Part shown: positions 5,157 through 31,834 of the stretch, in pieces
How positions within the stretch are numbered: the first letter of the stretch is position 1
Layout of the letters: each line of letters opens with the position of its first letter
From: Clostridiaceae bacterium
GTDB taxonomy: Bacteria > Bacillota > Clostridia > Saccharofermentanales > DTU023
DNA length: 64,000 bases
Reading direction: 5' to 3'
NCBI GenBank assembly: GCA_012841145.1
Contig: DUVH01000015.1
Coordinates: forward strand, 37,237 to 101,236
Position numbers and translations under genes: made by a program
Notes under the pieces: generated by a model
What the model was told of the DNA's origin: nothing
The model's input: only the letters and a program-made list of their open reading frames with translations
Database searches by the model: none

Positions 5157-5262
5157 AAAGCAATTCCTTTCATTCTTTACTTTTCAGGTTAGTAAAGCCT
5201 CTATTCTTTTCCGCCCTGTTATTGAAACGGGCGTACCTTCCTATTTGTTGCCGTTATCAGGC

Positions 5263-6525: not shown

Positions 6526-6630
6526 AAATCCCTTCTTTCTCTAACTTGTGCCTTTCCGTAAGACGACACATTCCTCTTATTCAAACTTAAAACCTGCGCG
6601 CTGCATGGCAGAGTACAGGTTTATAAACCT

Positions 6631-6804
6631 CTATAACCCTTTCAGTCTGCCGAGCAGTGATGCCATTTTTTTGTCACCGCCGGCGGCTGGTTTCCAATCG
6701 ACGTGGATTGTTCCCACATCCTGACTGCGCAGCTCTTCGTAAAAAGATTCGAGCCCCATGTTGATCACTTTCAACTCCCGTTTAAATAGTTCGTTGACTG
6801 ACAT
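6631..6804 (-). CDS. small ORF (57 aa) between fdrA and the DUF1116 gene, below the ORF-track cutoff
   Basis: My translation is MSVNELFKRELKVINMGLESFYEELRSQDVGTIHVDWKPAAGGDKKMASLLGRLKGL*. A GGAGGAG RBS lies 7-8 nt upstream, and the ORF starts 15 nt after the fdrA stop. Confidence 0.6.
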   Translation of the reverse strand: MSVNELFKRELKVINMGLESFYEELRSQDVGTIHVDWKPAAGGDKKMASLLGRLKGL

Positions 6805-6819
6805 ATCGCTTTCTCCTCC

Positions 6820-12411: not shown

Positions 12412-12414
12412 AAC

Positions 12415-12972
12415 ATGACAGTCGCAGAATTGAAACATGACGAAAAAGGTTGTGCCATGGAGACGGCGCATATCAGTTCGGCAAGAGAATCTCGTGTTGT
12501 CATTGACCTTGTCGTCAACGGAGAGCGCGTAATCGAAGAAATCGAACCGAACATGCTCTTGCTCCACTTTTTGCGTGACAAGCTGAAGCTTTTCGGCGCA
12601 AAAGAATCGTGCGGAGAAGGTGAATGCGGCGCATGCACCGTTCTGATGAACGGCTACGCCGTTACGTCCTGTCTCGTCCTAGCTATTGAGGCGAACGGCG
12701 CTGAGATACTCACCGTTGAGGGCCTTTCCAAAGGAAATGAACTCAGCATTCTCCAGCAGGAATTCGTGTTCCAGGATGCGCTCCAATGCGGTTTCTGCAC
12801 ACCGGGCATGCTGATGTCGGCGCGCGGACTCCTCGACAAGAACCCCGATCCGACCGATGAAGAGATTCGCGAGGCAATGGCAGGCAACCTCTGTCGTTGC
12901 ACCGGGTATCTCCAGATCTTCGATGCGGTCAAACGGGCTGCCGAGCGCGAGAGAGAAGAGAGAGAGGAGTAG
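12415..12972 (+). CDS. molybdenum hydroxylase [2Fe-2S] subunit (CoxS/XdhC-type iron-sulfur subunit)
   Basis: 185 aa. Two cluster motifs are present: CGEGECGACTV and CGFCTPGM...CRCTGY. It has a ~28 aa N-terminal extension relative to typical small subunits (alternative start at the internal METAH...). Confidence 0.9.
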   Translation: MTVAELKHDEKGCAMETAHISSARESRVVIDLVVNGERVIEEIEPNMLLLHFLRDKLKLFGAKESCGEGECGACTVLMNGYAVTSCLVLAIEANGAEILTVEGLSKGNELSILQQEFVFQDALQCGFCTPGMLMSARGLLDKNPDPTDEEIREAMAGNLCRCTGYLQIFDAVKRAAEREREEREE

Positions 12973-12979
12973 GATACTC

Positions 12980-15464: not shown

Positions 15465-16001
15465 TTATGTCGTTCCGGTCTTATCCGAAAAAGGGGTTAA
15501 GCGATACGCAAGAAACCATGCGGTAACAGCCTTGAGAGCATCTCCCGGTAAAAATACAACCATCCCTGTCATGAGGATATTCCCAAAAGTTATTGTTTGA
15601 TTCAGATAGAAACGAAGAACCAAAGCCATGTACGGCAAACCTAAAATGTAGATTAGAAACGTAACGGCGGCAATATTAAGCGCCGTCCGGACACAGTTCC
15701 CTTTGTTTCTTTGCGTCAAAAAGGAAAGGAGCGGTGACGCGACCACAAAAGCGAGAACAAAACCGAAGCCGGGCGAAACGAAAGGCGATGAACCGCCTAG
15801 GATAATCTTCAAAAACGCATGGAGCAGCATAGCCAAACATGACGTAGCCGGTTTCAGAAGAAGTCCTGCCATAAGTACAGCGAGTGTCTGCAGCGTGATG
15901 GGAACAGGCCCGACAGGTATTCTGATAAAACCGAACACAAACGTCAGCACGCCGAACAAAGCGGCGTACGTCATCATTCTTGTCGTCACTTTCACCTTCA
16001 T
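15465..16001 (-). CDS. bioY: biotin transporter S-component BioY
   Basis: 178 aa, multi-pass membrane protein. BioY-like sequence (IRIPVGPVPITLQTLAVLMAGLLL). Adjacent to birA. Confidence 0.85.
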   Translation of the reverse strand: MKVKVTTRMMTYAALFGVLTFVFGFIRIPVGPVPITLQTLAVLMAGLLLKPATSCLAMLLHAFLKIILGGSSPFVSPGFGFVLAFVVASPLLSFLTQRNKGNCVRTALNIAAVTFLIYILGLPYMALVLRFYLNQTITFGNILMTGMVVFLPGDALKAVTAWFLAYRLTPFSDKTGTT

Positions 16002-16058: not shown

Positions 16059-17069
16059 CTAAAAGCTGACGAGGCTGATTTCACCCGATGTGATTTCGCG
16101 TATTTTGCCATCGGCATCGCAATAAGTGAGCGCGCCGTCATCCGAAATGCCGGTCGGAACGATCGTGCGGCCGTCATCAAGAACCACTTCCCTGTCGATA
16201 ATAAAACAGCGCTCACGATACTCGTCGAGATAATCCCGACCGGGGAGCTCGCTCATAATGCAAGTCAACTCATTAATCATCATCGCGACTAAAACGTTGC
16301 GATTAAACGTGAGATTGCCCTCTTCATCTTTTGCGAAAGCCGTCCCGTCGATACACATGTTCGTGTGATCCAAAGCATCGGATAGAGCGCCGACCTTTTC
16401 CCGCAACTCAGCAGGATAGCCTTGTTCAGGACGCTCCAAATTCAAACCGACACCTATTACAATTGCTTTTTCATCTGACAAATCACGTTGTGCTATCGCT
16501 TCAGTCAATATGCCGCCAACCTTTTTCCCATCAATGAAAATATCGTTCACCCATTTAACATCGGCGCGCACCCCTAACTCTCTTTCGAGAACACGACAAA
16601 TAGCAACAGCCGCCATCGTCGTCAGAAGCGAAGGAGGCTCTTCGCGATCCCAGGAAAAAGCGAGTGAAAAATAGAGTCCGACATGAGGCGGAGAATAAAA
16701 AGACTTACCACGGCGTCCTCTTCCGCCCGTCTGTCCGTTCGTAACGATGAGACACGGAATCTTTCCTTCGCCGACCGCCACCCTCGCGAAAAGGTTTGTC
16801 GAAGTAACTGTCTCAAAACAGCGAATATACAGGTCGCTCCAATCATCGGATAATCGACTCCTAATAGCTTCTTCCGAGAAAAGATACGGTTCGCTGACTA
16901 GGCGATACCCGCGATTCTGGACGCCTTCAATCACATACCCCTGACTTCTGAAAACGTCGATTACTTTCCATACGGCTGTACGTGATACGTCAAGTTTTGA
17001 TGCTATTTGCTCCCCCGATAGAGACTCTTCTGCTTCTTTAAGTAATTTCAAAATAATCTGATTGTTCAT
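16059..17069 (-). CDS. birA: bifunctional biotin-[acetyl-CoA-carboxylase] ligase / biotin operon repressor
   Basis: 336 aa. N-terminal winged HTH (LSGEQIASKLDVSRTAVWKVIDVFRSQGYVIEG), followed by a ligase core with GRGRRGKSF (the GRGRxGR motif). Confidence 0.9.
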   Translation of the reverse strand: MNNQIILKLLKEAEESLSGEQIASKLDVSRTAVWKVIDVFRSQGYVIEGVQNRGYRLVSEPYLFSEEAIRSRLSDDWSDLYIRCFETVTSTNLFARVAVGEGKIPCLIVTNGQTGGRGRRGKSFYSPPHVGLYFSLAFSWDREEPPSLLTTMAAVAICRVLERELGVRADVKWVNDIFIDGKKVGGILTEAIAQRDLSDEKAIVIGVGLNLERPEQGYPAELREKVGALSDALDHTNMCIDGTAFAKDEEGNLTFNRNVLVAMMINELTCIMSELPGRDYLDEYRERCFIIDREVVLDDGRTIVPTGISDDGALTYCDADGKIREITSGEISLVSF

Positions 17070-17201: not shown

Positions 17202-18680
17202 TCAGTCGATTGGCGGCGTAGAGGCCGGCGGCTTGCGGAACTTTGACAGCTGCTCGAATGCGTACGCGATCTCAATCAAAACAGGCTCGCTGAAAGGGCG
17301 TCCGATGATTTCAAGACCGACCGGAACGCCGACGGGTGCATCAGGAGCCGGTGCAAACCCTGCCGGAACGGCAATCGAAGGAAAGCCTGTCGCCGAACAT
17401 AGTACTCCGTTTCGCTGTTGCTGCCCTTCACCGATCAGGCAGACGAGCTGTTGTTGATGCGGATAGACGAGCGCATCCAATTGACGATCAGCCATGATGT
17501 TCATAATCCTCGTGCGCATCTCCGCCTGTCTGATTAATTTCTTATTGTATGCCGCCGTACCGACGTCCAGTTTCAAGGCCGTCAGCATATTATCTTCAAT
17601 GCCAGGATGATACTTCCCACCCGCCAGAATCTCCTCAACTGAATGGACGGGAGCGTCATCTCCAAGCGCCGAGAGATAGCCGTTGAGATGTGTTTTGAAA
17701 TCATCGAGATGGACGCTGGCATTCCGAATCATCTCATCGGAATCGATATCGTCATCGACCTCGATCAGTACGGCACCGCCCTCTTCAAAGACAGCCAGAG
17801 CTTCTTTCATCACGTCATTGACCGGTTCATTAATCTCCTCTTTGCCGAAAAAACTGCGTAAGATCCCTACTCGCTTACCTTGCAAACCGTCAAGCTTAAG
17901 AAACGGCATGTAACTTTCCGGTTGACGACCGATACTCCAAGCTGTCTCGGGATCATCTGGATCATAACCTGCGATCACGTCAAGCGTCCGCACGCAATCC
18001 TCAACCGTCCTGCAGATCGGTCCCGCCGTATCCTGCGTCAGACTGTACGGAACAATACCCGCACGGCTCACAAGTCCGACCGTCGGCCTTATACCTGCGA
18101 GACTGCACGCCGAAGCGGGACTCCTGATTGAATTGATTGTGTCGGTTCCGATACCGATAATTCCGATGTTGGCAGCGATCGCCGAACCTGTTCCGCCGGA
18201 AGAACCTCCGGGCGTACGCGTCAAATCATAAGGGTTGACCGTCTGTCCGAGCATGGAGCTGATCGTCTCGCCCCAGATCGCGAATTCATGGAGGTTCGTC
18301 TTTGCCAGAATGATGGCGCCTGCTTCCCGCAGGCGTTTCGTGATAAAAGCGTCCTCGTTAGGAACATAGCCCTCAAGCGAAGCAGATCCGGCCGTCGTCG
18401 CCATGTCAAACGTATTGACATTGTCTTTCAACATGACAGGGATGCCGTGGAGCGGTCCTTGCAGCTCGCCTGTCTCCGCCAACATTCGGTCGAGAGCGTC
18501 GGCTTCATCGCATGCTTTCGGGTTAACCTCTATAATTGAATGAAGCGAGGGGCCTTGTTTATCATAAGCTTCGATACGTTTTAAATACGCATCGACGAGT
18601 TCACGGCTTGTCACTTCGCCTGCCTTCATCGAGGCATGAACGAGCGCAACCGTCGTTTCCATGATGTCAAAATATTTCAT
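17202..18680 (-). CDS. amidase-signature family amidohydrolase
   Basis: 492 aa. Has the classic signature GGSSGGTGSAIAA and the Ser-cisSer-Lys context. Lies 74 nt downstream of the decarboxylase beta subunit on the same strand. Confidence 0.85.
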   Translation of the reverse strand: MKYFDIMETTVALVHASMKAGEVTSRELVDAYLKRIEAYDKQGPSLHSIIEVNPKACDEADALDRMLAETGELQGPLHGIPVMLKDNVNTFDMATTAGSASLEGYVPNEDAFITKRLREAGAIILAKTNLHEFAIWGETISSMLGQTVNPYDLTRTPGGSSGGTGSAIAANIGIIGIGTDTINSIRSPASACSLAGIRPTVGLVSRAGIVPYSLTQDTAGPICRTVEDCVRTLDVIAGYDPDDPETAWSIGRQPESYMPFLKLDGLQGKRVGILRSFFGKEEINEPVNDVMKEALAVFEEGGAVLIEVDDDIDSDEMIRNASVHLDDFKTHLNGYLSALGDDAPVHSVEEILAGGKYHPGIEDNMLTALKLDVGTAAYNKKLIRQAEMRTRIMNIMADRQLDALVYPHQQQLVCLIGEGQQQRNGVLCSATGFPSIAVPAGFAPAPDAPVGVPVGLEIIGRPFSEPVLIEIAYAFEQLSKFRKPPASTPPID

Positions 18681-18754
18681 GGTATATTATTACCTCCTAA
18701 ATTACGTCAATAACAATTGTCTTGAGCTCTTAACAGTTAATCCCGAGCAGGCCT

Positions 18755-19918
18755 TTATCCGAAAAAATTCAGCAACAACCCCGCGGCAACTGCCGAGCCG
18801 ATGACGCCGGCGACATTCGGCCCCATCGCATGCATCAACAGGAAGTTCGATGGATTGTACTTCTGCCCTTCTCTCTGGACGACGCGAGCCGCCATCGGCA
18901 CGGCAGAAACGCCGGCTGCACCGATCAACGGATTGATTTTACTCTTCGTCAAGAAACACATCAGTTTACCGAGCAAAACACCTCCCGCGGTTCCGATCGA
19001 GAATGCGAGAAGTCCGAGCCCGACGATCATTAGCGTTTGAGGGCGTAAGAATCGTTCGGCCGTGGCCGTCGCACCAACTGTCATGCCGAGAAAAATCGAG
19101 ACGATGTACATGAGCGAATCTTTGATCGCATTGACGAGAAGCGGTACTTTGCCCGACTCCTTCAATAAATTGCCGAGCATGAGCATACCGATCAGCGAAG
19201 CGGCGGAAGGAAGGAGCAGTATGGTAAACAGTGTGACAGCGATCGGAAAGATAATCTTCTCGTCTTGACTGACTTCGCGAAGCTGTTCCATTTTAATCAT
19301 ACGCTCTTTTTCCGTCGTCAGCACTTTCATAATCGGCGGCTGAATGATAGGCACAAGCGCCATGTACGAGTAGGCTGCAATCGCGATTGGACCAAGAAGG
19401 TCAGGCGCAAGACGCCCCGTGAGAAAGAGCGCTGTCGGGCCGTCTGCCCCGCCGATGATACCGATTGACGCCGCTTCCGCTCCCGTAAATCCTAGTGCGA
19501 TCGCGCCGATAAACGTAATAAAAATACCGAGCTGCGCGGCGGCTCCAAGGAGAAGGCTTCTCGGGTTGGCAATCAGCGGTCCGAAATCGGTACCGACTCC
19601 TATGCAGAGGAAGATGAGAGGCGGATAAATGCCGAGCGCAGTTCCTTGATAGAGGTAGTACAATAGACCACCAGGCTGTGTCCCTAAGGGCCCATCCATC
19701 AGTCCTGCAAGCGGCAAGTTGGTGAGCAGCATACCGAAAGCGATCGGAATCAATAAATACGGTTCGTAGCCCCTTTTCACACCGAGGTAGATAAAGGTAA
19801 GCGCGATTACCACCATGATCAATTTCCCGGGAATCATCACGCCGAAGAGCTCCGTATCGAAACGGAAAAGCTCCGTGATGCCGGTACTCCTAAAGAAATC
19901 TACGAGTATGTCGTGCAT
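18755..19918 (-). CDS. Na+-translocating decarboxylase beta subunit (OadB/MmdB/GcdB family)
   Basis: 387 aa polytopic membrane protein. Family-typical stretches include LLIPIAFGMLLTNLP and AAGVSAVPMAARV. Confidence 0.9.
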   Translation of the reverse strand: MHDILVDFFRSTGITELFRFDTELFGVMIPGKLIMVVIALTFIYLGVKRGYEPYLLIPIAFGMLLTNLPLAGLMDGPLGTQPGGLLYYLYQGTALGIYPPLIFLCIGVGTDFGPLIANPRSLLLGAAAQLGIFITFIGAIALGFTGAEAASIGIIGGADGPTALFLTGRLAPDLLGPIAIAAYSYMALVPIIQPPIMKVLTTEKERMIKMEQLREVSQDEKIIFPIAVTLFTILLLPSAASLIGMLMLGNLLKESGKVPLLVNAIKDSLMYIVSIFLGMTVGATATAERFLRPQTLMIVGLGLLAFSIGTAGGVLLGKLMCFLTKSKINPLIGAAGVSAVPMAARVVQREGQKYNPSNFLLMHAMGPNVAGVIGSAVAAGLLLNFFG

Positions 19919-19927
19919 AGAATGCTC

Positions 19928-20317
19928 CTATTTGAACGTGACAAGAAGATCGCCAGATGACACAACGACACCTTTGCTAGTGTGAACTTTGGCGATCTCG
20001 CCATCGTGCGGAGCGACAATTTCATTCTCCATTTTCATCGCTTCGATCACTACGAGAATATCACCTGCTTTCACTTGGTCGCCGGCAGCAACATCGACGC
20101 TGAGAATCGTGCCCTGTAACGGCGCTTTCACGTCATCCCCGCCGGAAGCTGCCGCAGGTGGAGACGCCTTCGGTGCGGATGTGACGGGCGCCACGGGCGT
20201 AGGCACGGCCTTTACGGGGCGCGGTATCGACGCCGAGCGCTCCGCTTTGACTTCCTCTACTTCAACGAAATATTCTTCTCCGTCAATGACGATACGAAAT
20301 GTCTTAACTGTGGACAT
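19928..20317 (-). CDS. biotin carboxyl carrier subunit of the decarboxylase (MmdC/OadA-C-terminal-like)
   Basis: The track ORF extends to 20446. The ATG at 20317 gives MSTVKTFRIVIDGEEYFVEVEEV..., an A/P-rich linker and the biotinylation motif EAMKMEN. Confidence 0.9.
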   Translation of the reverse strand: MSTVKTFRIVIDGEEYFVEVEEVKAERSASIPRPVKAVPTPVAPVTSAPKASPPAAASGGDDVKAPLQGTILSVDVAAGDQVKAGDILVVIEAMKMENEIVAPHDGEIAKVHTSKGVVVSSGDLLVTFK

Positions 20318-20336
20318 GTGATTAAACCCTTTCTCT

Positions 20337-20702
20337 TTATAGCGAGCGCCTGAGCGACTCTTCAATGGCGGCGGCCTCCCATCCGGTTGACCCCGCTGAT
20401 TCGCGATAGATACGACGGACGACAAGCGTGACATCATCACCCGCATAAGCCTGAATCGCGGCGGATAGCGCGGCGATTTTTACTGAACTCAGTTTCGTCT
20501 CCGGCGCGTCGGTCGCGAGGAGTTCCGTCTCCTTCAGTTCGGGAGAATCGGAATCTTTCTTATTTTTTTTCTTTTTTCTATTCACGAAGAATGCCGTAAT
20601 ATCGACCAAGTACGAGATCGCAAGCAACACGATGAATACGAAAACCATATAGATAATCGACAATACGACGCTGTCTATCACTGTAATATTATCTGGCGTC
20701 AT
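20337..20702 (-). CDS. small membrane-anchor subunit of the decarboxylase (OadG/MmdD-like)
   Basis: The ATG at 20702 gives MTPDNITVIDSVVLSIIYMVFVFIVLLAISYLV (one TM helix), then a lysine run and a soluble tail. Size and position match gamma/delta subunits. Confidence 0.7.
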   Translation of the reverse strand: MTPDNITVIDSVVLSIIYMVFVFIVLLAISYLVDITAFFVNRKKKKNKKDSDSPELKETELLATDAPETKLSSVKIAALSAAIQAYAGDDVTLVVRRIYRESAGSTGWEAAAIEESLRRSL

Positions 20703-20712
20703 ACACTCACCT

Positions 20713-22275
20713 CTATAGGGGGATATTGCCATGTTTCTTGGCAATCTTCGGCATGCGTTTCCCGCGCAGCGAGTCGAAGGAGGAGATAAGGCGCTGACGC
20801 GTCTCCTCAGGCAAGATTACATCGTCAAGGTAACCGCGCTCCGCCGCTACAAACGGATTCATCATAGTCTCGGAATATTCGTCAATCTTCTCTTTACGTT
20901 TTTCTTCCGGATTGTCGGCGTTGCGAATCTCACGCGAGAAAATAATATTCGCGGCGCCCTCCGCACCCATGACGGCAATTTCCGCAGTGGGCCAGCCGAG
21001 CACGATGTCGCCGCCGAGATGCTTTGAGCACATTCCGATGTAGGCGCCGCCATAAGCTTTGCGGGTGATGACTGTTACTTTTGGAACGCTCGCTTCGCTA
21101 TAGGCGTAAAGCATCTTCGCGCCGTGACGAATGATTCCGCCGTACTCCTGCTGTGTGCCGGGGAGGAATCCCGGGACATCGACGAGTGTCAAAAGGGGCA
21201 CGTTAAACGCATCGCACATACGGATAAATCTCGACGCCTTGTCGGATGCATTGATATCGAGACAACCTGCCATCACGCGCGGCTGATTGGCGATGACACC
21301 GACACTTTCTCCGTTCAGGCGTATAAATCCCGTTACGATGTTTTGCGCAAAATAGGGCTGAACCTCAAACAGCGCCTCATCGTCCGCGAGCGCATAGATT
21401 AACTCTTTCATATCGTATGGCGTGCGCGGATCTTCCGGGATAATCGTATTCAGCGCTTTGACCATCTCATTAGGATCACGGAAACATTCCGTGCGCGCCG
21501 GCTTTTCGAGATTATTTTGAGGTAAGAAACTCAACAACTGTTTGATCTGAGCGAGGCACTCGTCTTCATCGGAAGCGCGGAAATGCGCGACACCGCTCAC
21601 ACTGTTATGCGTCATCGCGCCGCCGAGCGTCTGAGCAGAAACTTCTTCACCTGTAACAGCAAGAATGACCTGCGGACCTGTGATGAACATCTCACTCGTC
21701 TCATCAACCATAAACACGAAATCCGTAAGCGCAGGAGAATAGACGGCTCCGCCGGCACAGGGACCCATGATGACGGAAATCTGCGGGATGACGCCCGACG
21801 CCTTCGTATTGTTGTAGAAGATACGCCCGTACCCCGCCAGCGAGTCGACGCCTTCCTGAATACGTGCGCCGCCGGAATCGTTGATGGCAATCATCGGCGC
21901 GCCGACCTTGAGCGCCGCTTCCTGCGTACGCGCAATCTTATCGGCGTGCATTTCGCCCAAAGAACCGCCTATTACGGTAAAATCCTGAGCCGAGACATAG
22001 ACGAGTCGACCGTCGATCGTCCCGTAACCAGTCACAACGCCGTCGCCCGGGGCATTCTTCGAGTCCATTCCGAAGTTTGTCGCCCTGTGTTTGACGAAAA
22101 GGCCTGTCTCGACAAAACTTTTTTCATCGAGAAGCTTTTCGATACGTTCGCGTGCCGTCATCTTTCCTCGCGCGTGTTGCCGCTTAACGCCGGCTTCACT
22201 GCCGCCTGAAGAAAGCGTTTTCTTCATTTCAAGCAACGCTTTTTGTTTTTCATCCAACAAATTCGTATCCTCCAT
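20713..22275 (-). CDS. acyl-CoA carboxyltransferase, MmdA/PccB type (decarboxylase alpha subunit)
   Basis: 520 aa. High-similarity stretches to methylmalonyl-CoA decarboxylase alpha / propionyl-CoA carboxylase beta: DFTVIGGSLGEMHADKI, INDSGGARIQEGV, MGPCAGGAVYSPALTDF. Confidence 0.9.
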   Translation of the reverse strand: MEDTNLLDEKQKALLEMKKTLSSGGSEAGVKRQHARGKMTARERIEKLLDEKSFVETGLFVKHRATNFGMDSKNAPGDGVVTGYGTIDGRLVYVSAQDFTVIGGSLGEMHADKIARTQEAALKVGAPMIAINDSGGARIQEGVDSLAGYGRIFYNNTKASGVIPQISVIMGPCAGGAVYSPALTDFVFMVDETSEMFITGPQVILAVTGEEVSAQTLGGAMTHNSVSGVAHFRASDEDECLAQIKQLLSFLPQNNLEKPARTECFRDPNEMVKALNTIIPEDPRTPYDMKELIYALADDEALFEVQPYFAQNIVTGFIRLNGESVGVIANQPRVMAGCLDINASDKASRFIRMCDAFNVPLLTLVDVPGFLPGTQQEYGGIIRHGAKMLYAYSEASVPKVTVITRKAYGGAYIGMCSKHLGGDIVLGWPTAEIAVMGAEGAANIIFSREIRNADNPEEKRKEKIDEYSETMMNPFVAAERGYLDDVILPEETRQRLISSFDSLRGKRMPKIAKKHGNIPL

Positions 22276-22297
22276 CTACCAAATCAAATATTATTCA

Positions 22298-23929
22298 CTA
22301 TTTCTTAAAACTGTCGGGAATTTCATACAGACCGCCCGACCATTCGACGAGCTCATCAAGGGACTTAGCCGCGAGAAGGTCTTTTGTCGCGAGCGCCTGG
22401 TCAATGTCAAGATCGTCGGGGAGCGCGATTTTACCTGATTTCCTCAACTTTTCAATTACAGCCGGAGTCGCCATGTCACCGATCGGCGTCCCTTGCGCGA
22501 CAGCGCCCATCAGCGTCGTCCTCTCATCTTCGCTTTCAGCAAGATAGAGGTATGCGATCCCCTGCTCCGTCACGACGTGCGTTACATCTTCTCCGTAGAT
22601 CATGACAGGCGTGCTATCCAAACCTGCCTTCCTGCCGATCTCAACGGCATCAAGTTCGGGGACAAAATTGTTTCCGAACCGCCCGCTGCTTGACAACATC
22701 TGAACGATGAGTTTTCTTCCGCCTATCATGGAACGGCCCGGGTTCGGCATCATCGCTTTCCATGCCGGTGTCGAATGGCGTCGCCCTTGCGTGTTATGAC
22801 CCATGTTCGGAGCTCCTCCGAACCCCGACAGCCTGCCGCTCGTTACGGTCGAAGAGTTTGCAAGATAATCCATCTGCAGTGTCGCGCCTAAGAACAAATC
22901 GATACCGTATAATCCGGCCAACTGTGCGTATGCGCGGTTGGATCTTAGCGTTCCGTCATTTCCTGTAAAGAAGATATCGGAGCGAGCTTCCGTATACTTC
23001 TCCATCCCTTTTTCGCCGCCAAACGCGTAGATGCTCTCCACCCAGCCTCTTTCAATCGCCGGGATCATCATCGGATGAGGATTGAGAACCCAGTGACGGC
23101 AAATCTTTCCTTTCAAACCGAGGCTTTCACCGTACGTAGGGAGAATAAGTTCAATCGCAGCACCGTTATAGCCGATACCGTGATTGAGCGACATGACGCC
23201 GTGCTTGGCATAGATCCCCTTGATTGTCATCATCGCCATCAAAATATGTCTGTCGCGAATCTTCGCCGGATCTCTCGTGAAAAGCGCCTCCATCTGGTAC
23301 GGCTCATCCGATTGAACAACGATGTCAACCCAGTCTCCCGGGATATCGACACGCGGCAACGCGCCCTTACCGACAATCTCGTTGACTTGCACGATGACGA
23401 TACCGTCCTTAAACGCGGTCGCCTCGACGAGAATAGGCGTATCCTCCGTACTGTATCCGGTGAAAAGATTCCCGTCTTCATCGGCCATCTCCGCGGCGAC
23501 AAGACAGATATTGGGGATAAGGTCGACAAGCAGTCTCGCGTAAAGCTCGAGGTATGTGTGAATCGAACCTATCTTCAACTGATTGTCTTCAAGCATTTTT
23601 GCCAGTCGCACACTCTGCATGCCGGCAAACGCAAAATTGAGTTCATGCGCAATGCCTTTCTCGAAAAGGTCAAGATGCTCATCGCGCGATACGGCGGGGA
23701 TCATCATTGTGAGACCGTGCACAACAGCAGGGTCTACCGAAGCTAACGCCTGTGAAAGAAACGTCGCTTGCTTCTGGTTATCTCCTTCAAGCACTACTCG
23801 ATCGTTCGGACAGACAACTGCCTCCAGTACGGAGACAATATCTTCGGCTTGAACGATTTTCCCGCGCATCATATCCGAAGCGCGCTGCAGCCTTTGCTGC
23901 TTTCTAATCTTTTGCACATTCCATTCCAT
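22298..23929 (-). CDS. malonate decarboxylase alpha-subunit family protein (MdcA/MadA-like malonate:acetyl-thioester transferase)
   Basis: 543 aa. From my memory of MdcA it aligns along the whole length (LEGDNQKQATFLS, IHTYLELYARL, TEDTPILVEATAFKDGIVIVQVNEIV, LFTRDPAKI, KICRHWVLNPHP, GFGGAPNMG). First gene of the decarboxylase operon. Confidence 0.8.
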   Translation of the reverse strand: MEWNVQKIRKQQRLQRASDMMRGKIVQAEDIVSVLEAVVCPNDRVVLEGDNQKQATFLSQALASVDPAVVHGLTMMIPAVSRDEHLDLFEKGIAHELNFAFAGMQSVRLAKMLEDNQLKIGSIHTYLELYARLLVDLIPNICLVAAEMADEDGNLFTGYSTEDTPILVEATAFKDGIVIVQVNEIVGKGALPRVDIPGDWVDIVVQSDEPYQMEALFTRDPAKIRDRHILMAMMTIKGIYAKHGVMSLNHGIGYNGAAIELILPTYGESLGLKGKICRHWVLNPHPMMIPAIERGWVESIYAFGGEKGMEKYTEARSDIFFTGNDGTLRSNRAYAQLAGLYGIDLFLGATLQMDYLANSSTVTSGRLSGFGGAPNMGHNTQGRRHSTPAWKAMMPNPGRSMIGGRKLIVQMLSSSGRFGNNFVPELDAVEIGRKAGLDSTPVMIYGEDVTHVVTEQGIAYLYLAESEDERTTLMGAVAQGTPIGDMATPAVIEKLRKSGKIALPDDLDIDQALATKDLLAAKSLDELVEWSGGLYEIPDSFKK

Positions 23930-24288
23930 CGTCGTGGCTCCTTTATCTTTTCATTTACGCGGGGCAGTATAATGGATCGTCGTGTCCCTTCATCTGCTCG
24001 ATTGACCAGACCGATAAACGACAGGTTTCCATGAACATTCGCGAGTCATTTAGCGACATGGCCACTGCCCTTCCTGACATACAAACCTGCTATTCTTAAC
24101 TACCTTTAACGCTATCATTTGAGGTGTTGAACGTCAAATATATAACGTGCTAAACTTTACAGTTTATCGCCTTTTTTCCGGGTATGTTTTATAAGTAAAA
24201 TGACAAGGCCGCTTTAAATAATTATAAAAAACGGTCATGACCGCGCTATCAAACCGTCTCAATGTTTTACAGACAATCTTCGGATTCA

Positions 24289-25362
24289 TCAAGACTCATA
24301 TTTGTTATCCGCAATTACCTGATTGATGAACGCAAGCTTTCGTTTCGGATACTCCGGTCCGGCGACAAAAGACGACAATGCGTGCTGAGCACCCTCGACA
24401 ACCCAGTATTCTTTAAGTTCGGAAGAACAGGCATCGAAGAGTTTTTGCGACATCCACGTCGGCACAAAAACATCCTCGCTGCCGTGAATAATAAAAATAG
24501 GAACAGAAGCTCTCGCGATGGCGCTAAGCGCCGTCGGATCGTTCAATCGGTAGCCCATCGCAAAATAGAAGAAAAATTTAGAAAAAAAGAGTGCCGGACC
24601 GCGCAAAATCGGGCTCATACCGCGAGTCAGCCATTTGCCCTGATCGATGAGCGACGTAAACCCGCAATCGGAGATGACAGCGATAACGTTATCGGGGAAC
24701 CGTACGTCACCGGTCGCGGTCAGCACCGTCGCGGCACCCATGGACAGCCCGTCGAGCACGTACCATTCCGGAGCATCCTCGCCTAATCGCTTGTTAATCT
24801 CGTCTATCCAGACAAACAGATCGTCGTAATGTTTACACCCGATATCGATTCTCTTTCCCTCGCTCGGCTTGTGCCCTCGGAGCGAAGGAAGAAAGACTGA
24901 AATACCCGCCTCGATGTACGGTTTCGCGTCGAGGATTCTTGACCCGCTCGCATCACGCCAGCCGTGAACGACGATGGCACATCCGTTTCGGAAAGCAGAT
25001 AGCTCCGTCGATCCGATACAGGCAGGAATGTAAACGCCTCGGAGTTTCAAACCATCTCGCACGATCTCAAGTTCAATCTCGTCACCCGTCAAAAGTTCCT
25101 CTTTGACTTGCTGAGCCGTTGCGAAATAGGCTACCGTCTCCTCGGAAACATAAGCTCTGCTGCCTTGATCCTCATTCCCTTCCGGCGGTTTCGTCGCGTA
25201 GCGGAACAACACGCGTCCGAGAGACAACTCAAACCATAAAAAGATAAGCAGAACGGCACCGACGACAATCAATGCGATCAACCAAGGCGGCGCAGAAGCA
25301 CCAACAGTCGGTACAAACACCGCTTGAGCGAGCAAAAAAGAATACCGCGATAAACAAGCCAT
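24289..25362 (-). CDS. membrane-anchored alpha/beta-hydrolase
   Basis: 357 aa. N-terminal TM helix, nucleophile elbow GLSMGA, late HGSEDVFVP and GAQH motifs typical of the fold. Confidence 0.7.
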   Translation of the reverse strand: MACLSRYSFLLAQAVFVPTVGASAPPWLIALIVVGAVLLIFLWFELSLGRVLFRYATKPPEGNEDQGSRAYVSEETVAYFATAQQVKEELLTGDEIELEIVRDGLKLRGVYIPACIGSTELSAFRNGCAIVVHGWRDASGSRILDAKPYIEAGISVFLPSLRGHKPSEGKRIDIGCKHYDDLFVWIDEINKRLGEDAPEWYVLDGLSMGAATVLTATGDVRFPDNVIAVISDCGFTSLIDQGKWLTRGMSPILRGPALFFSKFFFYFAMGYRLNDPTALSAIARASVPIFIIHGSEDVFVPTWMSQKLFDACSSELKEYWVVEGAQHALSSFVAGPEYPKRKLAFINQVIADNKYES

Positions 25363-25539
25363 AGTTCAACCTCTTCTCACCAATCAAAGCACGTGACGAT
25401 ACGGAGCGCCCAGCGAGCACGTCGTCAATACTTCATCTTCGCTTATCATTATACGCAATTGATCAAAGGAGCATCACATAATGTCTTCTTTTAAATCATG
25501 CGCCCATTTGCCGCGAAAAGAGACACAACTGCTTAATAT

Positions 25540-26967
25540 TTAGTGACGGACGATCGGATCTGTGTACCATTTACCTTTACGATACAAGATCGCTCCCACG
25601 ATAATGATGATTACGTTGGAGGCAAGCATAGAGATCCAGAGTCCTGTCGCTCCGAGCGAAGTAACCGATTTAAAAAAGTAGATGAGCGGAAGTCGAATAC
25701 CCCACAATCTGAGTATCGAAATAAACGCGGAGTATCGATGGTATCCTGCACCGCTGAAAATACCGGCAAACGCATTAAAATATCCCATTGGAGGCGTCAT
25801 GAGAGCGGAGTAAACCATATACTCTAACGACTGCTCCCAGACAAGATCGGCATGCGTGCCCGTTTCTCGGATAAAGAGCGATAGCACGGGGTGACGCAGG
25901 AGCCACATTAGAAAGCCTCCGGCGATCGTTATATACGTGATGTAGCGGAAGGCCGTACTTGAGAATTCTCGCGCTCTTTCGCGATTATCGGCTCCCATGT
26001 TCTGTCCGATAAGCGGCGTCAATGCGCCCCCGATACCTGAGGCGGGCATCATAATAAAACTGTTAATCCTGTTGACCGCGGCGTACGCGGTAATGGTCGC
26101 ATCGCCGTAGCCTACAATGAGCGAGTGCATTAACGTAAACCCCAGCGCCGCACTCGATTGCCCGAGCGCCGTCGGGAAACCTGTACGTGCGAGCCTCGCA
26201 AATTGTGAAACGGTCAGCTTCGTACCCTTTAAACGCAATCTCACCTCATTGACATCGGAGCGAATCGCCATAGCGGCCATGACCATACGAACTGCCTGCG
26301 ATATAATGGTCGCCCATGCCGCTCCGGCAATCCCCATTCCCAGTCCTGACAGATTTACGAAAGGAATTCGCGTAAAAATGAAAACTGGGTCGAGAATGAT
26401 GTTCAAGATAGCTGATACTGCACTGATCCTCGTCGTCACGCGCGTCTTACCTTGAGCGCTTAAGATCGCATAATACGACAAATAGACCATTTCAAACACG
26501 AATCCGATCATCAGAATCGAGAAATACGTCGTCGCCGCATCGTAAAGCGCTCCTGTAGCGCCCATCACCTTAATGATGTAAGGCGCTAAGAAATAACCTG
26601 TGACAGAAAAAAACACGCCTATTACAAGACAAAAGAAAAAGATATGTGTTGCGTATGACTCGGCCCGCTCCTTCTCACCCGCCCCGATCAGTTGCGAGAT
26701 GATCGCCGTTCCGGCGATTGAGATTCCGATACCAAGCGAAATAAACAGATAGTGCGGAGGCCAAACAAAGCTCGTCGCGGAAAAATCGACAAGTGAAAGT
26801 TGCGCTACCCAAAGTCCGTCCGCCAAGTTGTATACGGCATTGATCAAGTTGGTAAGCATCAACGGGACTGAAACAGAAAAAAGGACCGGGACGATCGGTC
26901 CTTTCAAAATGTCTCCGCTGCCTTGAGTTTGAGATGTCAGTTGTTTTGCATTATCTTCGTCTTTCAT
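25540..26967 (-). CDS. MATE-family efflux transporter
   Basis: 475 aa with ~12 predicted TM helices and a MATE-like N-terminus (PIVPVLFSVSVPLMLTNLINAVYNLADGLWV). Confidence 0.85.
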   Translation of the reverse strand: MKDEDNAKQLTSQTQGSGDILKGPIVPVLFSVSVPLMLTNLINAVYNLADGLWVAQLSLVDFSATSFVWPPHYLFISLGIGISIAGTAIISQLIGAGEKERAESYATHIFFFCLVIGVFFSVTGYFLAPYIIKVMGATGALYDAATTYFSILMIGFVFEMVYLSYYAILSAQGKTRVTTRISAVSAILNIILDPVFIFTRIPFVNLSGLGMGIAGAAWATIISQAVRMVMAAMAIRSDVNEVRLRLKGTKLTVSQFARLARTGFPTALGQSSAALGFTLMHSLIVGYGDATITAYAAVNRINSFIMMPASGIGGALTPLIGQNMGADNRERAREFSSTAFRYITYITIAGGFLMWLLRHPVLSLFIRETGTHADLVWEQSLEYMVYSALMTPPMGYFNAFAGIFSGAGYHRYSAFISILRLWGIRLPLIYFFKSVTSLGATGLWISMLASNVIIIIVGAILYRKGKWYTDPIVRH

Positions 26968-29995: not shown

Positions 29996-30009
29996 AATCA
30001 TTTCCCTCC

Positions 30010-31347: not shown

Positions 31348-31349
31348 AA

Positions 31350-31712: not shown

Positions 31713-31834
31713 AATTCTGATTCCTTCCTGCATCTATTTCATTTGTATACCGGTTTCCGATACCGTCTCGAACCGGCTGTTTCATGGCACGAACATCAAA
31801 GAGCCGTGCCGAGATACCTGCTGTTCCGTGCCAA

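What the first reader, a model, noticed from the sequence alone, without database searches (positions are those of the whole stretch)
17202..23929. Hybrid malonate decarboxylase: MdcA/MadA-like transferase wired to an Mmd-type CoA-ester Na+ pump, with no ACP or prosthetic-group genes
What the sequence shows: a full-length MdcA-family gene lies 22 nt upstream of a single 520-aa MmdA/PccB-type carboxyltransferase. That is followed by the small anchor, the biotin carrier (EAMKMEN) and the OadB-family membrane subunit.

Established background: known malonate decarboxylases use a dedicated ACP carrying a phosphoribosyl-dephospho-CoA group plus its biosynthesis and loading genes. This holds for both the Klebsiella/Acinetobacter Mdc type (biotin-independent) and the Malonomonas Mad type (biotin-dependent), and both use split MdcD/E- or MadC/D-type carboxyltransferases. 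None of those genes (mdcB/C/D/E/G/H equivalents) is present in or beside this operon.

Inference: the MdcA-like protein works as a free malonate:acetyl-CoA CoA-transferase. The Mmd-type complex then decarboxylates malonyl-CoA while pumping Na+. This matches the physiology once described for malonate-fermenting Firmicutes, but I do not know of a gene set assigned to it. The amidase and birA-bioY appear to be on the same transcript direction, with short gaps (74 and 132 nt).
Basis: partly seen in the sequence, partly recalled or inferred. Interest (0 to 1): 0.75.

Follow-up and report, generated by a model that had tools for sequence, protein, structure and literature searches.

The report
ACP-less malonate decarboxylase sodium pump
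An uncultured anaerobe joins the malonate-activating enzyme MdcA to a methylmalonyl-CoA-decarboxylase-type sodium pump with no carrier-protein genes nearby, which looks like a third, not yet described way for bacteria to gain energy from malonate.

Summary
On the minus strand lie a full-length MdcA (22298-23929), a single 520-aa PccB/MmdA-type carboxyltransferase 22 nt downstream, a small membrane anchor, a biotin carrier (EAMKMEN), an OadB-family subunit, an amidase, BirA and BioY.

The arrangement is not chance. At least 18 further loci from Saccharofermentanales and Erysipelotrichaceae metagenome-assembled genomes (MAGs) carry MdcA plus the whole pump (MdcA 66-93% identical).

Of 104 MdcA loci compared, 64 classical ones carry mdcB/C/D/E in cis. 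The 22 carboxyltransferase-linked ones never do. Profile HMMs find no MdcC, B, G or E in the 64-kb window or in any hybrid locus.

The hybrid MdcAs keep all ten malonate and active-site residues. They have lost the Glu-Thr-Phe424, Glu466 and hydrophobic-490 surface that docks the carrier protein MdcC (26 of 26, against about 64 of 64 kept in classical enzymes).

The pump module matches a canonical mutase-linked Mmd operon, but no mutase or epimerase genes occur nearby. The most likely mechanism is free malonate:acetyl-CoA CoA transfer followed by biotin-dependent, Na+-pumping decarboxylation of malonyl-CoA.

Neighbouring genes suggest the malonate comes from breakdown of a pyrimidine-type heterocycle. 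No biochemistry exists and no whole genome was searched. I rate it a new variant of a known kind.

The parts
22298..23929 (-). MdcA-family transferase (543 aa), proposed free malonate:acetyl-CoA CoA-transferase
   Evidence: PF16957 at 853 bits; TIGR01110 at 807 against a cut-off of 789. It is 60% identical to P. aeruginosa MdcA (5vit). All 10 active-site residues are kept, and the MdcC-docking residues are lost.
20713..22275 (-). Single-chain PccB/MmdA-type carboxyltransferase (520 aa), proposed malonyl-CoA:biotin carboxyltransferase
   Evidence: PF01039 at 671 bits; TIGR01117 at 856, below the 998.8 cut-off. Best solved relatives are propionyl-CoA carboxylase beta subunits and the transcarboxylase 12S subunit. 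It carries the signature G58, G414, A438, M471, M472 shared by all 39 MdcA-linked carboxyltransferases.
20337..20702 (-). Small membrane anchor (121 aa), OAD_gamma / MmdD-like
   Evidence: PF04277 at 41 bits; TIGR01195 at 37.9 against a cut-off of 36.05. The translation shows an N-terminal hydrophobic helix. The start codon follows the gene calls on identical contigs.
19928..20317 (-). Biotin carboxyl carrier protein (129 aa)
   Evidence: PF00364 at 65.8 bits. The translation contains VIEAMKMENEI and an Ala/Pro-rich linker.
18755..19918 (-). OadB/MmdB-family carboxybiotin decarboxylase, the Na+-translocating subunit (387 aa)
   Evidence: PF03977 at 520 bits; TIGR01109 at 476 against a cut-off of 190.6. 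The MadB model TIGR03136 gives only 184 against 596.9. D203, Y229, N373, G377, S382, R389 and N412 of the Salmonella beta subunit are all conserved (roles from PMC7274780).
17202..18680 (-). Amidase-signature amidase (492 aa) in the same operon; proposed to release malonate from an amide precursor
   Evidence: PF01425 at 324 bits. The closest solved relative is peptide amidase 1m21. It is conserved directly after OadB in the Saccharofermentanales-type loci.
16059..17069 (-). BirA, biotin ligase/repressor
   Evidence: HTH_11 plus BPL_LplA_LipB domains; TIGR00121 at 120 against a cut-off of 83. Conserved next to the pump in relatives.
15465..15974 (-). BioY, biotin transporter S component
   Evidence: PF02632 at 78 bits. 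Conserved in relatives.
24109..24137 (-). Promoter-like element (TTGACG, 17 nt, TG-n-TAGCGT) upstream of mdcA
   Evidence: The TTGACG and GTGATAGC blocks are the only invariant stretches in the region upstream of mdcA across 5 loci. Inferred, not shown.
24231..24244 (-). Terminator-like hairpin plus T-run after the alpha/beta-hydrolase gene; it separates that gene from the mdcA transcript
   Evidence: Consensus scan and the sequence itself.
24289..26967 (-). Conserved upstream neighbours: alpha/beta hydrolase (24289-25362) and MATE transporter (25540-26967)
   Evidence: Pfam. Conserved in this order in relatives.
11560..15394 (+). Xanthine-dehydrogenase-family enzyme: FAD subunit (11560-12411), 2Fe-2S subunit (12415-12972), molybdopterin subunit (12980-15394). 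Convergent with the operon and part of the conserved block.
   Evidence: Pfam and NCBIfam place it in the family but in no equivalog. Orthologues sit after BioY in relatives L011, L013, L034, L035, L047, L117 and L118.
4353..11029 (-). Possible upstream pathway genes: PucR regulator (9344-11029), AllH-like (8370-9347), FdrA/AllF-like (6820-8445), AllG-like (5263-6525), cyclase-family hydrolase (4353-5156)
   Evidence: Pfam and NCBIfam. The same AllH-FdrA-AllG-cyclase order, followed by an amidase, lies next to an orphan MdcA in a Spirochaetota locus, L027. Belonging to the system is an inference.

Best explanation
This is an ACP-independent, biotin-dependent, Na+-translocating malonate decarboxylase built from two known modules.

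1. MdcA transfers CoA from acetyl-CoA to malonate, giving malonyl-CoA and acetate. It works on free CoA esters rather than on the phosphoribosyl-dephospho-CoA arm of a carrier protein.
2. The single-chain PccB/MmdA-type carboxyltransferase moves the free carboxyl of malonyl-CoA onto the biotin of the 129-aa carrier. This regenerates the acetyl-CoA consumed in step 1.
3. The OadB-family membrane subunit, held to the soluble parts by the small anchor, decarboxylates carboxybiotin and exports Na+.

The net reaction is malonate + H+ -> acetate + CO2, coupled to a sodium gradient. BirA and BioY supply and attach the biotin.

The co-transcribed amidase and the conserved xanthine-dehydrogenase-family enzyme probably make the malonate inside the cell from an N-heterocyclic, pyrimidine-type precursor.

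Shown: gene content and order, family membership, conservation of catalytic and Na+-site residues, loss of ACP-docking residues, and absence of ACP, accessory, mutase and epimerase genes in cis. Inferred: substrate use by each enzyme, Na+ pumping, co-transcription, and the origin of the malonate.
For: - **Anatomy.** The core genes are separated by gaps of 9-22 nt.
- **Recurrence.** MdcA-carboxyltransferase-anchor-BCCP-OadB recurs in at least 18 further loci with MdcA 66-93% identical, from Saccharofermentanales-type and Erysipelotrichaceae MAGs.
- **Dichotomy.** Of 104 MdcA loci, 64 are classical with mdcB/C/D/E in cis and 22 are carboxyltransferase-linked without them. None is mixed.
- **No carrier-protein genes.** Profile HMMs of MdcC, B, G and E find nothing in the window or in the hybrid loci.
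- **Active site kept.** MdcA residues N59, Y134, R228, N258, I261, N292, F312, R341, Q345 and G381 (roles from PMC5534430) are conserved in 26 of 26 hybrid-clade sequences.
- **Docking surface lost.** The MdcC-docking positions described in PMC5534430 are E422-T423-F/Y424 in 64 of 64 classical enzymes, E466 in 62 of 64, and aliphatic or aromatic 490 in 63 of 64. All three are lost in 26 of 26 hybrid-clade sequences. In that paper the F424A mutant alone broke the holoenzyme.
- **The carboxyltransferase is a free-acyl-CoA type.** It scores about 660-670 bits to propionyl-CoA carboxylase beta subunits and the transcarboxylase 12S subunit. That enzyme class accepts acetyl- and malonyl-CoA (PMC8085960).
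- **A bona fide pump module.** A mutase-linked Mmd operon in Senegalia sp. has the same four-gene order and a carboxyltransferase 71% identical.
- **Na+-site residues.** All are conserved in the OadB-family subunit.
- **No propionate-pathway genes.** No mutase, epimerase, MeaB or ScpC homologue is found in the window or in any related locus.
- **Malonate-type regulators and transporters.** Other hybrid loci carry a divergent LysR regulator plus an AEC-family transporter (the MdcF family) or a DASS dicarboxylate transporter.
Against: - No enzyme of this clade has been assayed, and no cultured host was found.
- The whole genome could not be searched, so an ACP with its MdcB/MdcG-type genes encoded elsewhere is not excluded.
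- This MdcA still passes the mdcA equivalog cut-off. It is 60-61% identical to ACP-dependent enzymes.
- All carboxyltransferase-linked MdcAs form one clade. The residue-to-context correlation therefore amounts to about one evolutionary event.
- The carboxyltransferase is as close to a mutase-linked MmdA (71%) as to some other MdcA-linked carboxyltransferases (67%). Its substrate preference is unproven.
- The window's own cluster has no recognisable malonate importer.
Confidence: 0.7

Rival explanations
1. It is a Malonomonas-type (Mad-like) ACP-dependent enzyme. Its carrier protein and the prosthetic-group genes (MadE, MadG, MadK, MadH equivalents) are simply encoded elsewhere in the genome.
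For: This MdcA passes the TIGR01110 equivalog cut-off and is 60-61% identical to ACP-dependent MdcAs. Arg228, proposed to bind the diphosphate of the prosthetic group, is kept. Only 64 kb, plus about 10 kb either side in relatives, could be examined.
Against: - In 64 classical loci the ACP and accessory genes are in cis. In about 35 hybrid loci from several lineages none is.
- The ACP-docking residues, including F424 whose mutation breaks the holoenzyme, are lost in every hybrid-clade MdcA.
- The carboxyltransferase is of the fused, free-acyl-CoA type, not MadC/MadD or MdcD/MdcE. It scores 80 and 32 bits against those models, whose cut-offs are 278 and 237.
Confidence: 0.1
2. The pump is an ordinary methylmalonyl-CoA decarboxylase of succinate-to-propionate metabolism. 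The MdcA-like protein only happens to lie next to it, or it activates another dicarboxylate such as methylmalonate or succinate.
For: The best NCBIfam hit of the carboxyltransferase is mmdA. It is 71% identical to the carboxyltransferase of a canonical ScpC-mutase-MeaB-epimerase-Mmd operon with the same gene order.
Against: - No mutase, epimerase, MeaB or ScpC homologue occurs in the window or in any related locus.
- The MdcA-carboxyltransferase junction, with its gap of about 20 nt, is conserved across lineages.
- All malonate-binding residues of MdcA, including F312 under the C2 methylene, are kept.
- The 39 MdcA-linked carboxyltransferases share five residues that differ in all 27 members of the group containing the mutase-linked one.
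- The carboxyltransferase, carrier and anchor all fall below the Mmd equivalog cut-offs.
Confidence: 0.07
3. The cluster has an anabolic role. MdcA salvages malonate into malonyl-CoA for fatty-acid synthesis, or the pump runs backwards as a Na+-gradient-driven acetyl-CoA carboxylase.
For: The fab cluster in the window (FabH, FabK, FabD, FabG, FabF, FabZ; 43055-48451) has no acc genes beside it. BirA and BioY sit next to this biotin enzyme. Orphan MdcAs elsewhere sit next to thiolase-like enzymes.
Against: Tight coupling of a malonyl-CoA-forming and a malonyl-CoA-decarboxylating enzyme argues for net decarboxylation. In other lineages the neighbours are catabolic regulators, transporters, amidases and oxidoreductases. 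Absence of acc genes from 64 kb says nothing about the rest of the genome.
Confidence: 0.05

Closest known systems
Biotin-dependent, Na+-translocating malonate decarboxylase of Malonomonas rubra (Mad; EC 7.2.4.4)
   Same: Same overall chemistry and energy conservation. An MdcA-family transferase activates malonate as a thioester, the carboxyl group goes to a biotin carrier, and an OadB-family membrane subunit decarboxylates carboxybiotin and pumps Na+ (PMC8085960).
   Different: - Mad works on an acyl carrier protein (MadE) bearing phosphoribosyl-dephospho-CoA and needs MadG, MadK and MadH. None is found here.
- Its carboxyltransferase is split (MadC/MadD). Here it is a fused PccB-type chain.
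- The membrane subunit here scores far below the MadB model (184 against 596.9).
- No MadL/MadM transporter is present.
Methylmalonyl-CoA decarboxylase Na+ pump (Mmd; EC 7.2.4.3), as in Veillonella/Propionigenium and in the Senegalia sp. operon L113
   Same: The same four-gene module and order (carboxyltransferase, small anchor, biotin carrier, OadB-family subunit). The carboxyltransferase is 71% identical to the one in a mutase-linked operon, and the Na+-site residues are conserved.
   Different: - MdcA precedes the module in place of the ScpC-mutase-MeaB-epimerase genes, and no such genes lie nearby.
- The carboxyltransferase, carrier and anchor are all below the Mmd equivalog cut-offs.
- MdcA-linked carboxyltransferases carry a distinct five-residue signature.
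- The presumed substrate is malonyl-CoA, not (S)-methylmalonyl-CoA.
Biotin-independent malonate decarboxylase (MdcACDE with MdcB, G, H) of Klebsiella, Pseudomonas and Acinetobacter (EC 4.1.1.88)
   Same: MdcA is 60-61% identical, with an identical malonate and active site. Some hybrid loci also carry a LysR regulator and an AEC-family transporter, as Klebsiella does with mdcR and mdcF.
   Different: The classical enzyme is soluble, needs no biotin, conserves no energy and depends on an ACP. Here MdcC, D, E, B, G and H are absent and the MdcC-docking surface of MdcA is lost.
Malonyl-CoA-dependent malonate fermentation described physiologically for Sporomusa malonica
   Same: Growth by malonate decarboxylation in a Firmicute (Dehning et al. 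1989, cited in PMC8085960). From my own memory, not checked here: Dehning and Schink 1994 reported a route via malonate CoA-transferase and malonyl-CoA decarboxylase. That is the physiology this gene set would encode.
   Different: I found no genes assigned to that physiology. Sporomusa genomes could not be searched here, so identity with this gene set is untested.

Membership tests
MdcA / MadA family (malonate decarboxylase alpha subunit) | Full-length match above the curated cut-offs | tested here: met
   PF16957 at 853 bits; TIGR01110 at 807.1 against 789.15.
MdcA / MadA family (malonate decarboxylase alpha subunit) | Malonate-binding and oxyanion-hole residues (N59, Y134, N258, I261, N292, F312, R341, Q345, G381) and R228 | tested here: met
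   All are identical to P. aeruginosa MdcA.
MdcA / MadA family (malonate decarboxylase alpha subunit) | Docking surface for the ACP MdcC (E-T-F424, E466, hydrophobic 490) | tested here: not met
   F424 is deleted or replaced, E466 is Q, and position 490 is G. The same holds in 26 of 26 hybrid-clade sequences, whereas the surface is conserved in about 64 of 64 classical ones.
Mad-type biotin-dependent malonate decarboxylase (EC 7.2.4.4) | Dedicated ACP (MadE/MdcC) with prosthetic-group synthesis and loading genes (MadG/MdcB, MadK/MdcG, MadH) | tested here: not met
   None is found in the 64-kb window or in about 35 hybrid loci, by phmmer, profile HMMs and Pfam. The rest of the genome could not be tested.
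Mad-type biotin-dependent malonate decarboxylase (EC 7.2.4.4) | Split MadC/MadD carboxyltransferase | tested here: not met
   The carboxyltransferase is a single 520-aa chain. Scores against the split beta and gamma models are 80 and 32 bits, with cut-offs of 278 and 237.
Mad-type biotin-dependent malonate decarboxylase (EC 7.2.4.4) | MadB-type carboxybiotin decarboxylase | tested here: not met
   TIGR03136 gives 184 bits against 596.9. The protein fits the general Na+-pump beta model TIGR01109 instead.
Mad-type biotin-dependent malonate decarboxylase (EC 7.2.4.4) | Biotin carrier protein | tested here: met
   PF00364 and the AMKM biotinylation motif.
Mmd methylmalonyl-CoA decarboxylase (EC 7.2.4.3) | MmdA, MmdC and MmdD at equivalog level | tested here: not met
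   TIGR01117 at 856 against 998.8; NF047903 at 99 against 200; NF047902 at 22.6 against 150. The proteins match at family level only.
Mmd methylmalonyl-CoA decarboxylase (EC 7.2.4.3) | Na+-translocating beta subunit with the Na+-site residues | tested here: met
   TIGR01109 at 476 against 190.6. D203, S382 and N412, and also Y229, N373, G377 and R389, are conserved.
Mmd methylmalonyl-CoA decarboxylase (EC 7.2.4.3) | Genomic association with methylmalonyl-CoA mutase and epimerase (succinate-to-propionate pathway) | tested here: not met
   No homologue occurs in the window or in any of 113 loci. They are present in the canonical comparator L113.
Mmd methylmalonyl-CoA decarboxylase (EC 7.2.4.3) | Preference for (S)-methylmalonyl-CoA | not testable with these tools
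   This needs enzyme kinetics. The only lead is the five-residue signature, one position of which (G414) lies next to I413, the residue aligned with position 422 of S. coelicolor PccB. From memory, that PccB position influences acyl-CoA specificity.
Mdc biotin-independent malonate decarboxylase (EC 4.1.1.88) | MdcC, MdcD, MdcE in cis, with MdcB, G and H | tested here: not met
   Absent here. Present in 64 classical loci analysed with the same method.

The most novel reading that the evidence does not exclude
The operon may be the terminal, energy-conserving step of an undescribed anaerobic oxidative pathway for pyrimidines or related N-heterocycles.

1. A xanthine-dehydrogenase-family enzyme hydroxylates the ring, for example uracil to barbiturate.
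2. A hydrolase opens the ring. In the window the candidates are the cyclase-family hydrolase and the AllFGH-like transcarbamylase, which could also yield carbamoyl phosphate.
3. The operon's amidase releases malonate.
4. The ACP-less MdcA/Mmd hybrid converts the malonate into a sodium gradient.

If so, this would be both a third type of malonate decarboxylase and the missing link between nucleobase breakdown and decarboxylation-driven energy conservation in uncultured digester and gut Firmicutes.
Probability: 0.3. Interest if true: 0.8.

Novelty: new variant of a known kind. Interest (0 to 1): 0.62.

Why it matters
- Two enzyme systems for bacterial malonate decarboxylation are established, and both depend on a special carrier protein. 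This gene set would be a third, simpler type that uses free CoA esters and still conserves energy as a sodium gradient.
- It gives a concrete gene assignment to a physiology reported decades ago for malonate-fermenting Firmicutes. As far as I could find, no genes have been assigned to it.
- Annotation pipelines currently mislabel the genes. They call them 'malonate decarboxylase subunit alpha' next to 'methylmalonyl-CoA carboxyltransferase / acyl-CoA carboxylase beta', so metabolic reconstructions of digester, rumen and gut MAGs would wrongly read the pump as propionate formation.
- The system is common in metagenomes. One related MdcA-carboxyltransferase pair occurs in 548 index blocks of the collection.
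- MdcA-clade proteins that lack the docking surface are a ready source of natural malonate CoA-transferases for malonyl-CoA supply in metabolic engineering.
- The conserved amidase and molybdoenzyme neighbours suggest an unexplored anaerobic route from pyrimidine-type compounds to malonate.

Tried and rejected
1. **Structured leader or riboswitch upstream of mdcA.** Rfam finds nothing there. The 171-nt leader folds no better than shuffled sequence (z = -0.15), and the alignment of relatives gives almost no covariation. Rejected.
2. **Apparent MdcB profile hits in L012, L038 and L045.** They lie inside mdcA in another reading frame. They arise because the reference ORFs overlap the 3' end of mdcA. 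Artefact.
3. **The MdcH hit in the window.** It is FabD within a fab cluster.
4. **Small antisense ORF between the hydrolase gene and mdcA in relatives (L011, L013, L118), tested as a hidden ACP.** It carries an HExxH motif, has no Pfam or MdcC-profile match, and is absent from the window.
5. **Search for a cultured host.** All three protein searches and the cluster look-up returned only MAG or metagenome sources for hybrid-type MdcA.
6. **Function of the amidase from solved structures.** The closest is peptide amidase, which does not identify the substrate. The cyclase-family protein matches only kynurenine-formamidase-like hydrolases, weakly.
7. **PccB Asp422-equivalent as a specificity marker.** It is Ile here, but Ile, Val or Leu also occur in genuine propionyl-CoA carboxylases and in Mmd-group carboxyltransferases. 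Not diagnostic.
8. **MdcA interface residues R500 and R521.** R500 varies even among classical enzymes. R521 is kept in 59 of 64 classical enzymes but also in 5 of 26 hybrid-clade ones, so it separates the groups less cleanly. Neither is used as evidence.
9. **Literature searches** for barbiturate, ureidomalonate or uracil dehydrogenase in anaerobes found nothing relevant.
10. **My first reading of locus L027** as having a nucleobase permease next to MdcA was wrong. That gene is thiolase-like; the permease is in L021.

Full report
**What is in the sequence**

The finding's coordinates cover six co-directional genes on the minus strand.

- MdcA family protein, 22298-23929, 543 aa. It matches PF16957 over its full length (853 bits). 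It scores 807 bits on the NCBIfam mdcA equivalog model, just above the 789 cut-off.
- Carboxyltransferase, 20713-22275, 520 aa, starting 22 nt downstream. It is a single chain of the PccB/MmdA type: PF01039 at 671 bits, and TIGR01117 at 856 bits, below that model's 998.8 cut-off.
- OAD_gamma-family anchor of 121 aa, 20337-20702.
- Biotin carrier of 129 aa, 19928-20317, with the motif VIEAMKMENEI.
- OadB-family membrane subunit of 387 aa, 18755-19918: TIGR01109 at 476 bits against a 190.6 cut-off.
- Amidase-signature amidase, 17202-18680, after a 74-nt gap.

After a further 132 nt come BirA (16059-17069) and BioY (15465-15974). Gaps within the core are 22, 10, 19 and 9 nt.

A terminator-like hairpin closes the upstream alpha/beta-hydrolase gene (24231-24244). 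The only invariant blocks in the 360-nt region before mdcA, across five loci, form a promoter-like TTGACG-17 nt-TGnTAGCGT element.

**Is it more than chance?**

Identical or nearly identical contigs come from anaerobic-digester metagenomes. The genome collection holds nine related loci, labelled Clostridiaceae, Saccharofermentanales or Mageeibacillus MAGs, with MdcA 71-93% identical. Where the contig allows, they show the same order: MATE, alpha/beta hydrolase, MdcA, carboxyltransferase, anchor, BCCP, OadB, amidase, sometimes a LysR gene, BirA, BioY and a xanthine-dehydrogenase-family enzyme.

A metagenome scan and further look-ups added more. Two distinct lineages stand out:

- L044/L045 (unplaced metagenome contigs): a CN-hydrolase and a DASS dicarboxylate transporter, with a divergent LysR regulator.
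- L116 (Erysipelotrichaceae MAG): a LysR regulator and an AEC-family transporter.

I classified 104 non-redundant MdcA loci with one method:

| Class | Loci |
|---|---|
| Classical, with mdcB/C/D/E in cis | 64 |
| MdcA followed by the PccB-type carboxyltransferase | 22 (15 with the whole pump; 7 cut by a contig end or carboxyltransferase only) |
| Orphan MdcA | 18 |
| Mixed | 0 |

Three more whole-pump loci were found afterwards (L116, L117, L118).

**Are carrier-protein genes really missing?**

I took the Klebsiella mdc operon as reference. phmmer with its proteins found MdcB, C, D, E, G and H in classical loci, but nothing in the window or the hybrid loci except the expected distant match of MdcD to the carboxyltransferase. 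Profile HMMs built from 58 MdcC, 58 MdcB, 49 MdcG and 47 MdcE sequences again found nothing real in the window (all ORFs of 35 aa or more) or in about 35 hybrid loci.

Pfam and NCBIfam scans of essentially all substantial window ORFs show only unrelated functions: housekeeping genes, glycine cleavage, a fab cluster, an ECF/cobalamin cluster and the dnaK operon.

The rest of the genome could not be searched. This remains the main gap.

**Evidence inside MdcA itself**

The Pseudomonas holoenzyme paper (PMC5534430) lists two sets of residues:

- The malonate site and oxyanion holes: N59, Y134, N258, I261, N292, F312, R341, Q345 and G381, plus R228 near the diphosphate.
- The interface with the ACP MdcC. 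The F424A mutant alone disrupted the hetero-tetramer.

Aligned to 5vit (60% identity), the window protein keeps all ten active-site residues.

Across 64 classical MdcAs the interface is strongly conserved: E422-T423-(F/Y)424 in 64 of 64, E466 in 62 of 64, and an aliphatic or aromatic residue at 490 in 63 of 64. In all 26 members of the carboxyltransferase-linked clade the picture is reversed. The E-T-F motif is gone, with F424 deleted or replaced. E466 is Gln or His. Position 490 is Gly, Ala, Asp or Glu.

This is what one expects of an enzyme that still makes a malonyl thioester but no longer docks the carrier protein. There is a caveat. In a neighbour-joining tree, all carboxyltransferase-linked MdcAs, together with a small group of gut orphans, form a single clade. 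The correlation therefore reflects essentially one evolutionary event.

**The pump module**

The closest solved relatives of the carboxyltransferase are propionyl-CoA carboxylase beta subunits and the transcarboxylase 12S subunit, at about 640-670 bits. All of these act on free acyl-CoA esters, and that enzyme class is known to accept acetyl- and malonyl-CoA (PMC8085960).

A homologue 71% identical (P0297, Senegalia sp.) sits in a textbook operon: ScpC-like transferase, methylmalonyl-CoA mutase, MeaB, epimerase, carboxyltransferase, anchor, BCCP, OadB. The four-gene pump module here is thus a genuine Mmd-type module. In the hybrid, MdcA stands where the mutase and epimerase genes stand in the canonical operon.

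Homologues of those four upstream genes are absent from the window and from all 113 loci then held.

In a neighbour-joining tree of the carboxyltransferases, the MdcA-linked ones do not mix with the group that holds the mutase-linked one. Five alignment columns separate 39 MdcA-linked carboxyltransferases (G58, G414, A438, M471, M472) from all 27 members of that group (D, A, P, V, A). G414 lies next to I413, the residue aligned with position 422 of S. coelicolor PccB. From memory, that position influences acyl-CoA specificity. I treat this as a lead, not a proof.

The membrane subunit keeps D203, S382 and N412, the Na+-site residues of the Salmonella enzyme. It also keeps Y229, N373, G377 and R389 (PMC7274780; alignment).

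**Where might the malonate come from?**

The window's cluster has no obvious malonate importer. It does have an amidase in the operon and a three-subunit xanthine-dehydrogenase-family enzyme (11560-15394, plus strand), and both are conserved in the block in relatives.

- In L117 the genes directly upstream of mdcA, and co-directional with it, are a LacI-type regulator, a PreA/dihydroorotate-dehydrogenase-like protein, a second XDH-family enzyme and a cytosine-deaminase-like amidohydrolase (413 bits against a 438 cut-off). A cytosine-permease-like gene lies alongside.
- In the window, beyond the XDH genes, lie a PucR regulator and an AllH-FdrA-AllG-cyclase module (4353-11029).
- The same four-gene order, followed by an amidase, lies next to an orphan MdcA in a Spirochaetota locus (L027).
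- AllFGH is the oxamate carbamoyltransferase of E. coli (PMC11326118).

Together these suggest that malonate is produced inside the cell from a pyrimidine-type heterocycle, for example cytosine/uracil -> barbiturate -> ureidomalonate or malonamate -> malonate. This is inference only. I found no paper describing such an anaerobic route.

An alternative source is hydrolysis of malonyl esters or amides by the conserved alpha/beta hydrolase and the amidase.

In other lineages the hybrid sits beside a LysR regulator and an AEC or DASS transporter. That fits direct uptake of malonate.

**Most likely mechanism**

1. Malonate + acetyl-CoA -> malonyl-CoA + acetate (MdcA, acting on free CoA esters).
2. 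Malonyl-CoA + biotinyl-carrier -> acetyl-CoA + carboxybiotinyl-carrier (carboxyltransferase).
3. Carboxybiotin + H+ -> biotin + CO2, with Na+ export (OadB-family subunit, held to the soluble parts by the small anchor).

Acetyl-CoA cycles catalytically, as acetyl-ACP does in the Malonomonas enzyme. I put this at about 0.7.

Rivals:

- An ACP encoded elsewhere in the genome (about 0.1).
- An ordinary methylmalonyl-CoA decarboxylase with an unrelated neighbour (about 0.07).
- An anabolic or reversed role (about 0.05).

**Comparison with what is known, and novelty**

The system works like the Malonomonas Mad pump. However, it fails Mad's defining features: the ACP with its accessory genes, the split carboxyltransferase, and a MadB-type subunit. 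It is built like an Mmd pump, but it lacks the Mmd pathway context and falls below the Mmd equivalog cut-offs. It shares only MdcA with the Klebsiella/Pseudomonas enzyme.

It is best described as a new variant: a third architecture for malonate decarboxylation assembled from known modules. Full-text searches found no paper that assigns genes to it. That library omits many subscription journals. The link to Sporomusa malonica rests partly on my memory of Dehning and Schink (1994).

Public annotations call the two key genes 'malonate decarboxylase subunit alpha' and 'methylmalonyl-CoA carboxyltransferase / acyl-CoA carboxylase subunit beta'.

**Related variants seen on the way**

- A very common MdcA-carboxyltransferase pair with LysR genes but no pump genes nearby (P0091).
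- Orphan MdcAs in gut metagenomes (L040-L043).
- Orphan MdcAs in Spirochaetota, Thermodesulfovibrionales and other phyla, next to TRAP transporters or thiolase-like enzymes.

These suggest that ACP-free use of MdcA-family transferases is broader than this one operon.

**Limits**

- There is no biochemistry, no cultured host and no whole-genome search.
- The trees are quick neighbour-joining trees with midpoint rooting.
- Co-transcription and promoter assignment are inferred from spacing and conservation only.

Noticed in passing
window 4353-11029 (-); L027 13997-20347 (-): An AllH-FdrA/AllF-AllG-cyclase-family module with a PucR regulator lies beyond the XDH genes. The same four-gene order, followed by an amidase, lies beside an orphan MdcA in a Spirochaetota MAG. 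This could be a transcarbamylase/hydrolase set acting on a ureido- or acylurea-type precursor of malonate.
   Followed up: partly
L117 1-8020 and 17652-18788: In a relative (GCA_012727845.1) the hybrid operon is directly preceded by a LacI-type regulator, a PreA/DHOD-like gene, a second XDH-family enzyme and a cytosine-deaminase-like gene, with a cytosine-permease-like gene alongside. The orthologue of the window's XDH (75% identical) follows BioY. This points to a pyrimidine origin of the malonate.
   Followed up: partly
L029/L030 8966-13277: A very common relative (MdcA P0091, listed in 548 index blocks of the collection) has only LysR-MdcA-carboxyltransferase (542 aa, 67% identical to the window's). 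There is no anchor, carrier or OadB gene nearby. It may be a soluble or trans-complemented variant.
   Followed up: partly
L040-L043 (human gut metagenomes); L017, L018, L021-L024, L026, L027: Orphan MdcA genes have no ACP and no carboxyltransferase nearby. Their neighbours are TRAP or CitMHS transporters, a xanthine/uracil permease (L021), or thiolase-like proteins (L026, L027). Most also lack the MdcC-docking residues.
   Followed up: partly
window carboxyltransferase residues 58, 414, 438, 471, 472 (gene 20713-22275): Five residues (G, G, A, M, M) are invariant in 39 MdcA-linked carboxyltransferases. They are replaced by D, A, P, V, A in all 27 members of the group containing a mutase-linked MmdA. 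This is a possible malonyl-CoA specificity signature.
   Followed up: partly
L114 4019-9039: A close carboxyltransferase homologue (70% identical) sits with a thiolase-like protein, a DUF35-type zinc-ribbon protein, a small ORF, a FabD-like acyltransferase and a 4HBT thioesterase. This is another unexplained malonyl-CoA-related context.
   Followed up: no
window 39924-40101 (-): A cobalamin riboswitch (79 bits) lies upstream of a cluster at 33085-39774 that encodes DUF4430 proteins, a beta-propeller protein and ECF-type transporter parts. It is probably a B12 uptake locus.
   Followed up: no
window 43055-48451 (+): The fatty-acid synthesis cluster (FabH, FabK-like, FabD, FabG, FabF, FabZ) has no acetyl-CoA carboxylase genes beside it within the window.
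   Followed up: no
window 28541-32974 (-): A complete glycine-cleavage operon (T, H, P-alpha, P-beta) lies upstream of the conserved block. In relative L118 ribosomal-protein genes occupy that position, so the operon is not part of the block.
   Followed up: partly
L011 9430-10002 (-), L118 7745-8134 (-): Relatives carry a small antisense gene with an HExxH motif between the alpha/beta-hydrolase gene and mdcA. They also carry a LysR gene between the amidase and BirA. Both are missing from the window.
   Followed up: partly
L009 7454-8392 (-); L116 6523-7467 (-): An AEC-family (Mem_trans) transporter, the family of Klebsiella MdcF, lies just upstream of mdcA in two different hybrid lineages (32% identical to each other). 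It is a candidate malonate importer that the window lacks.
   Followed up: partly
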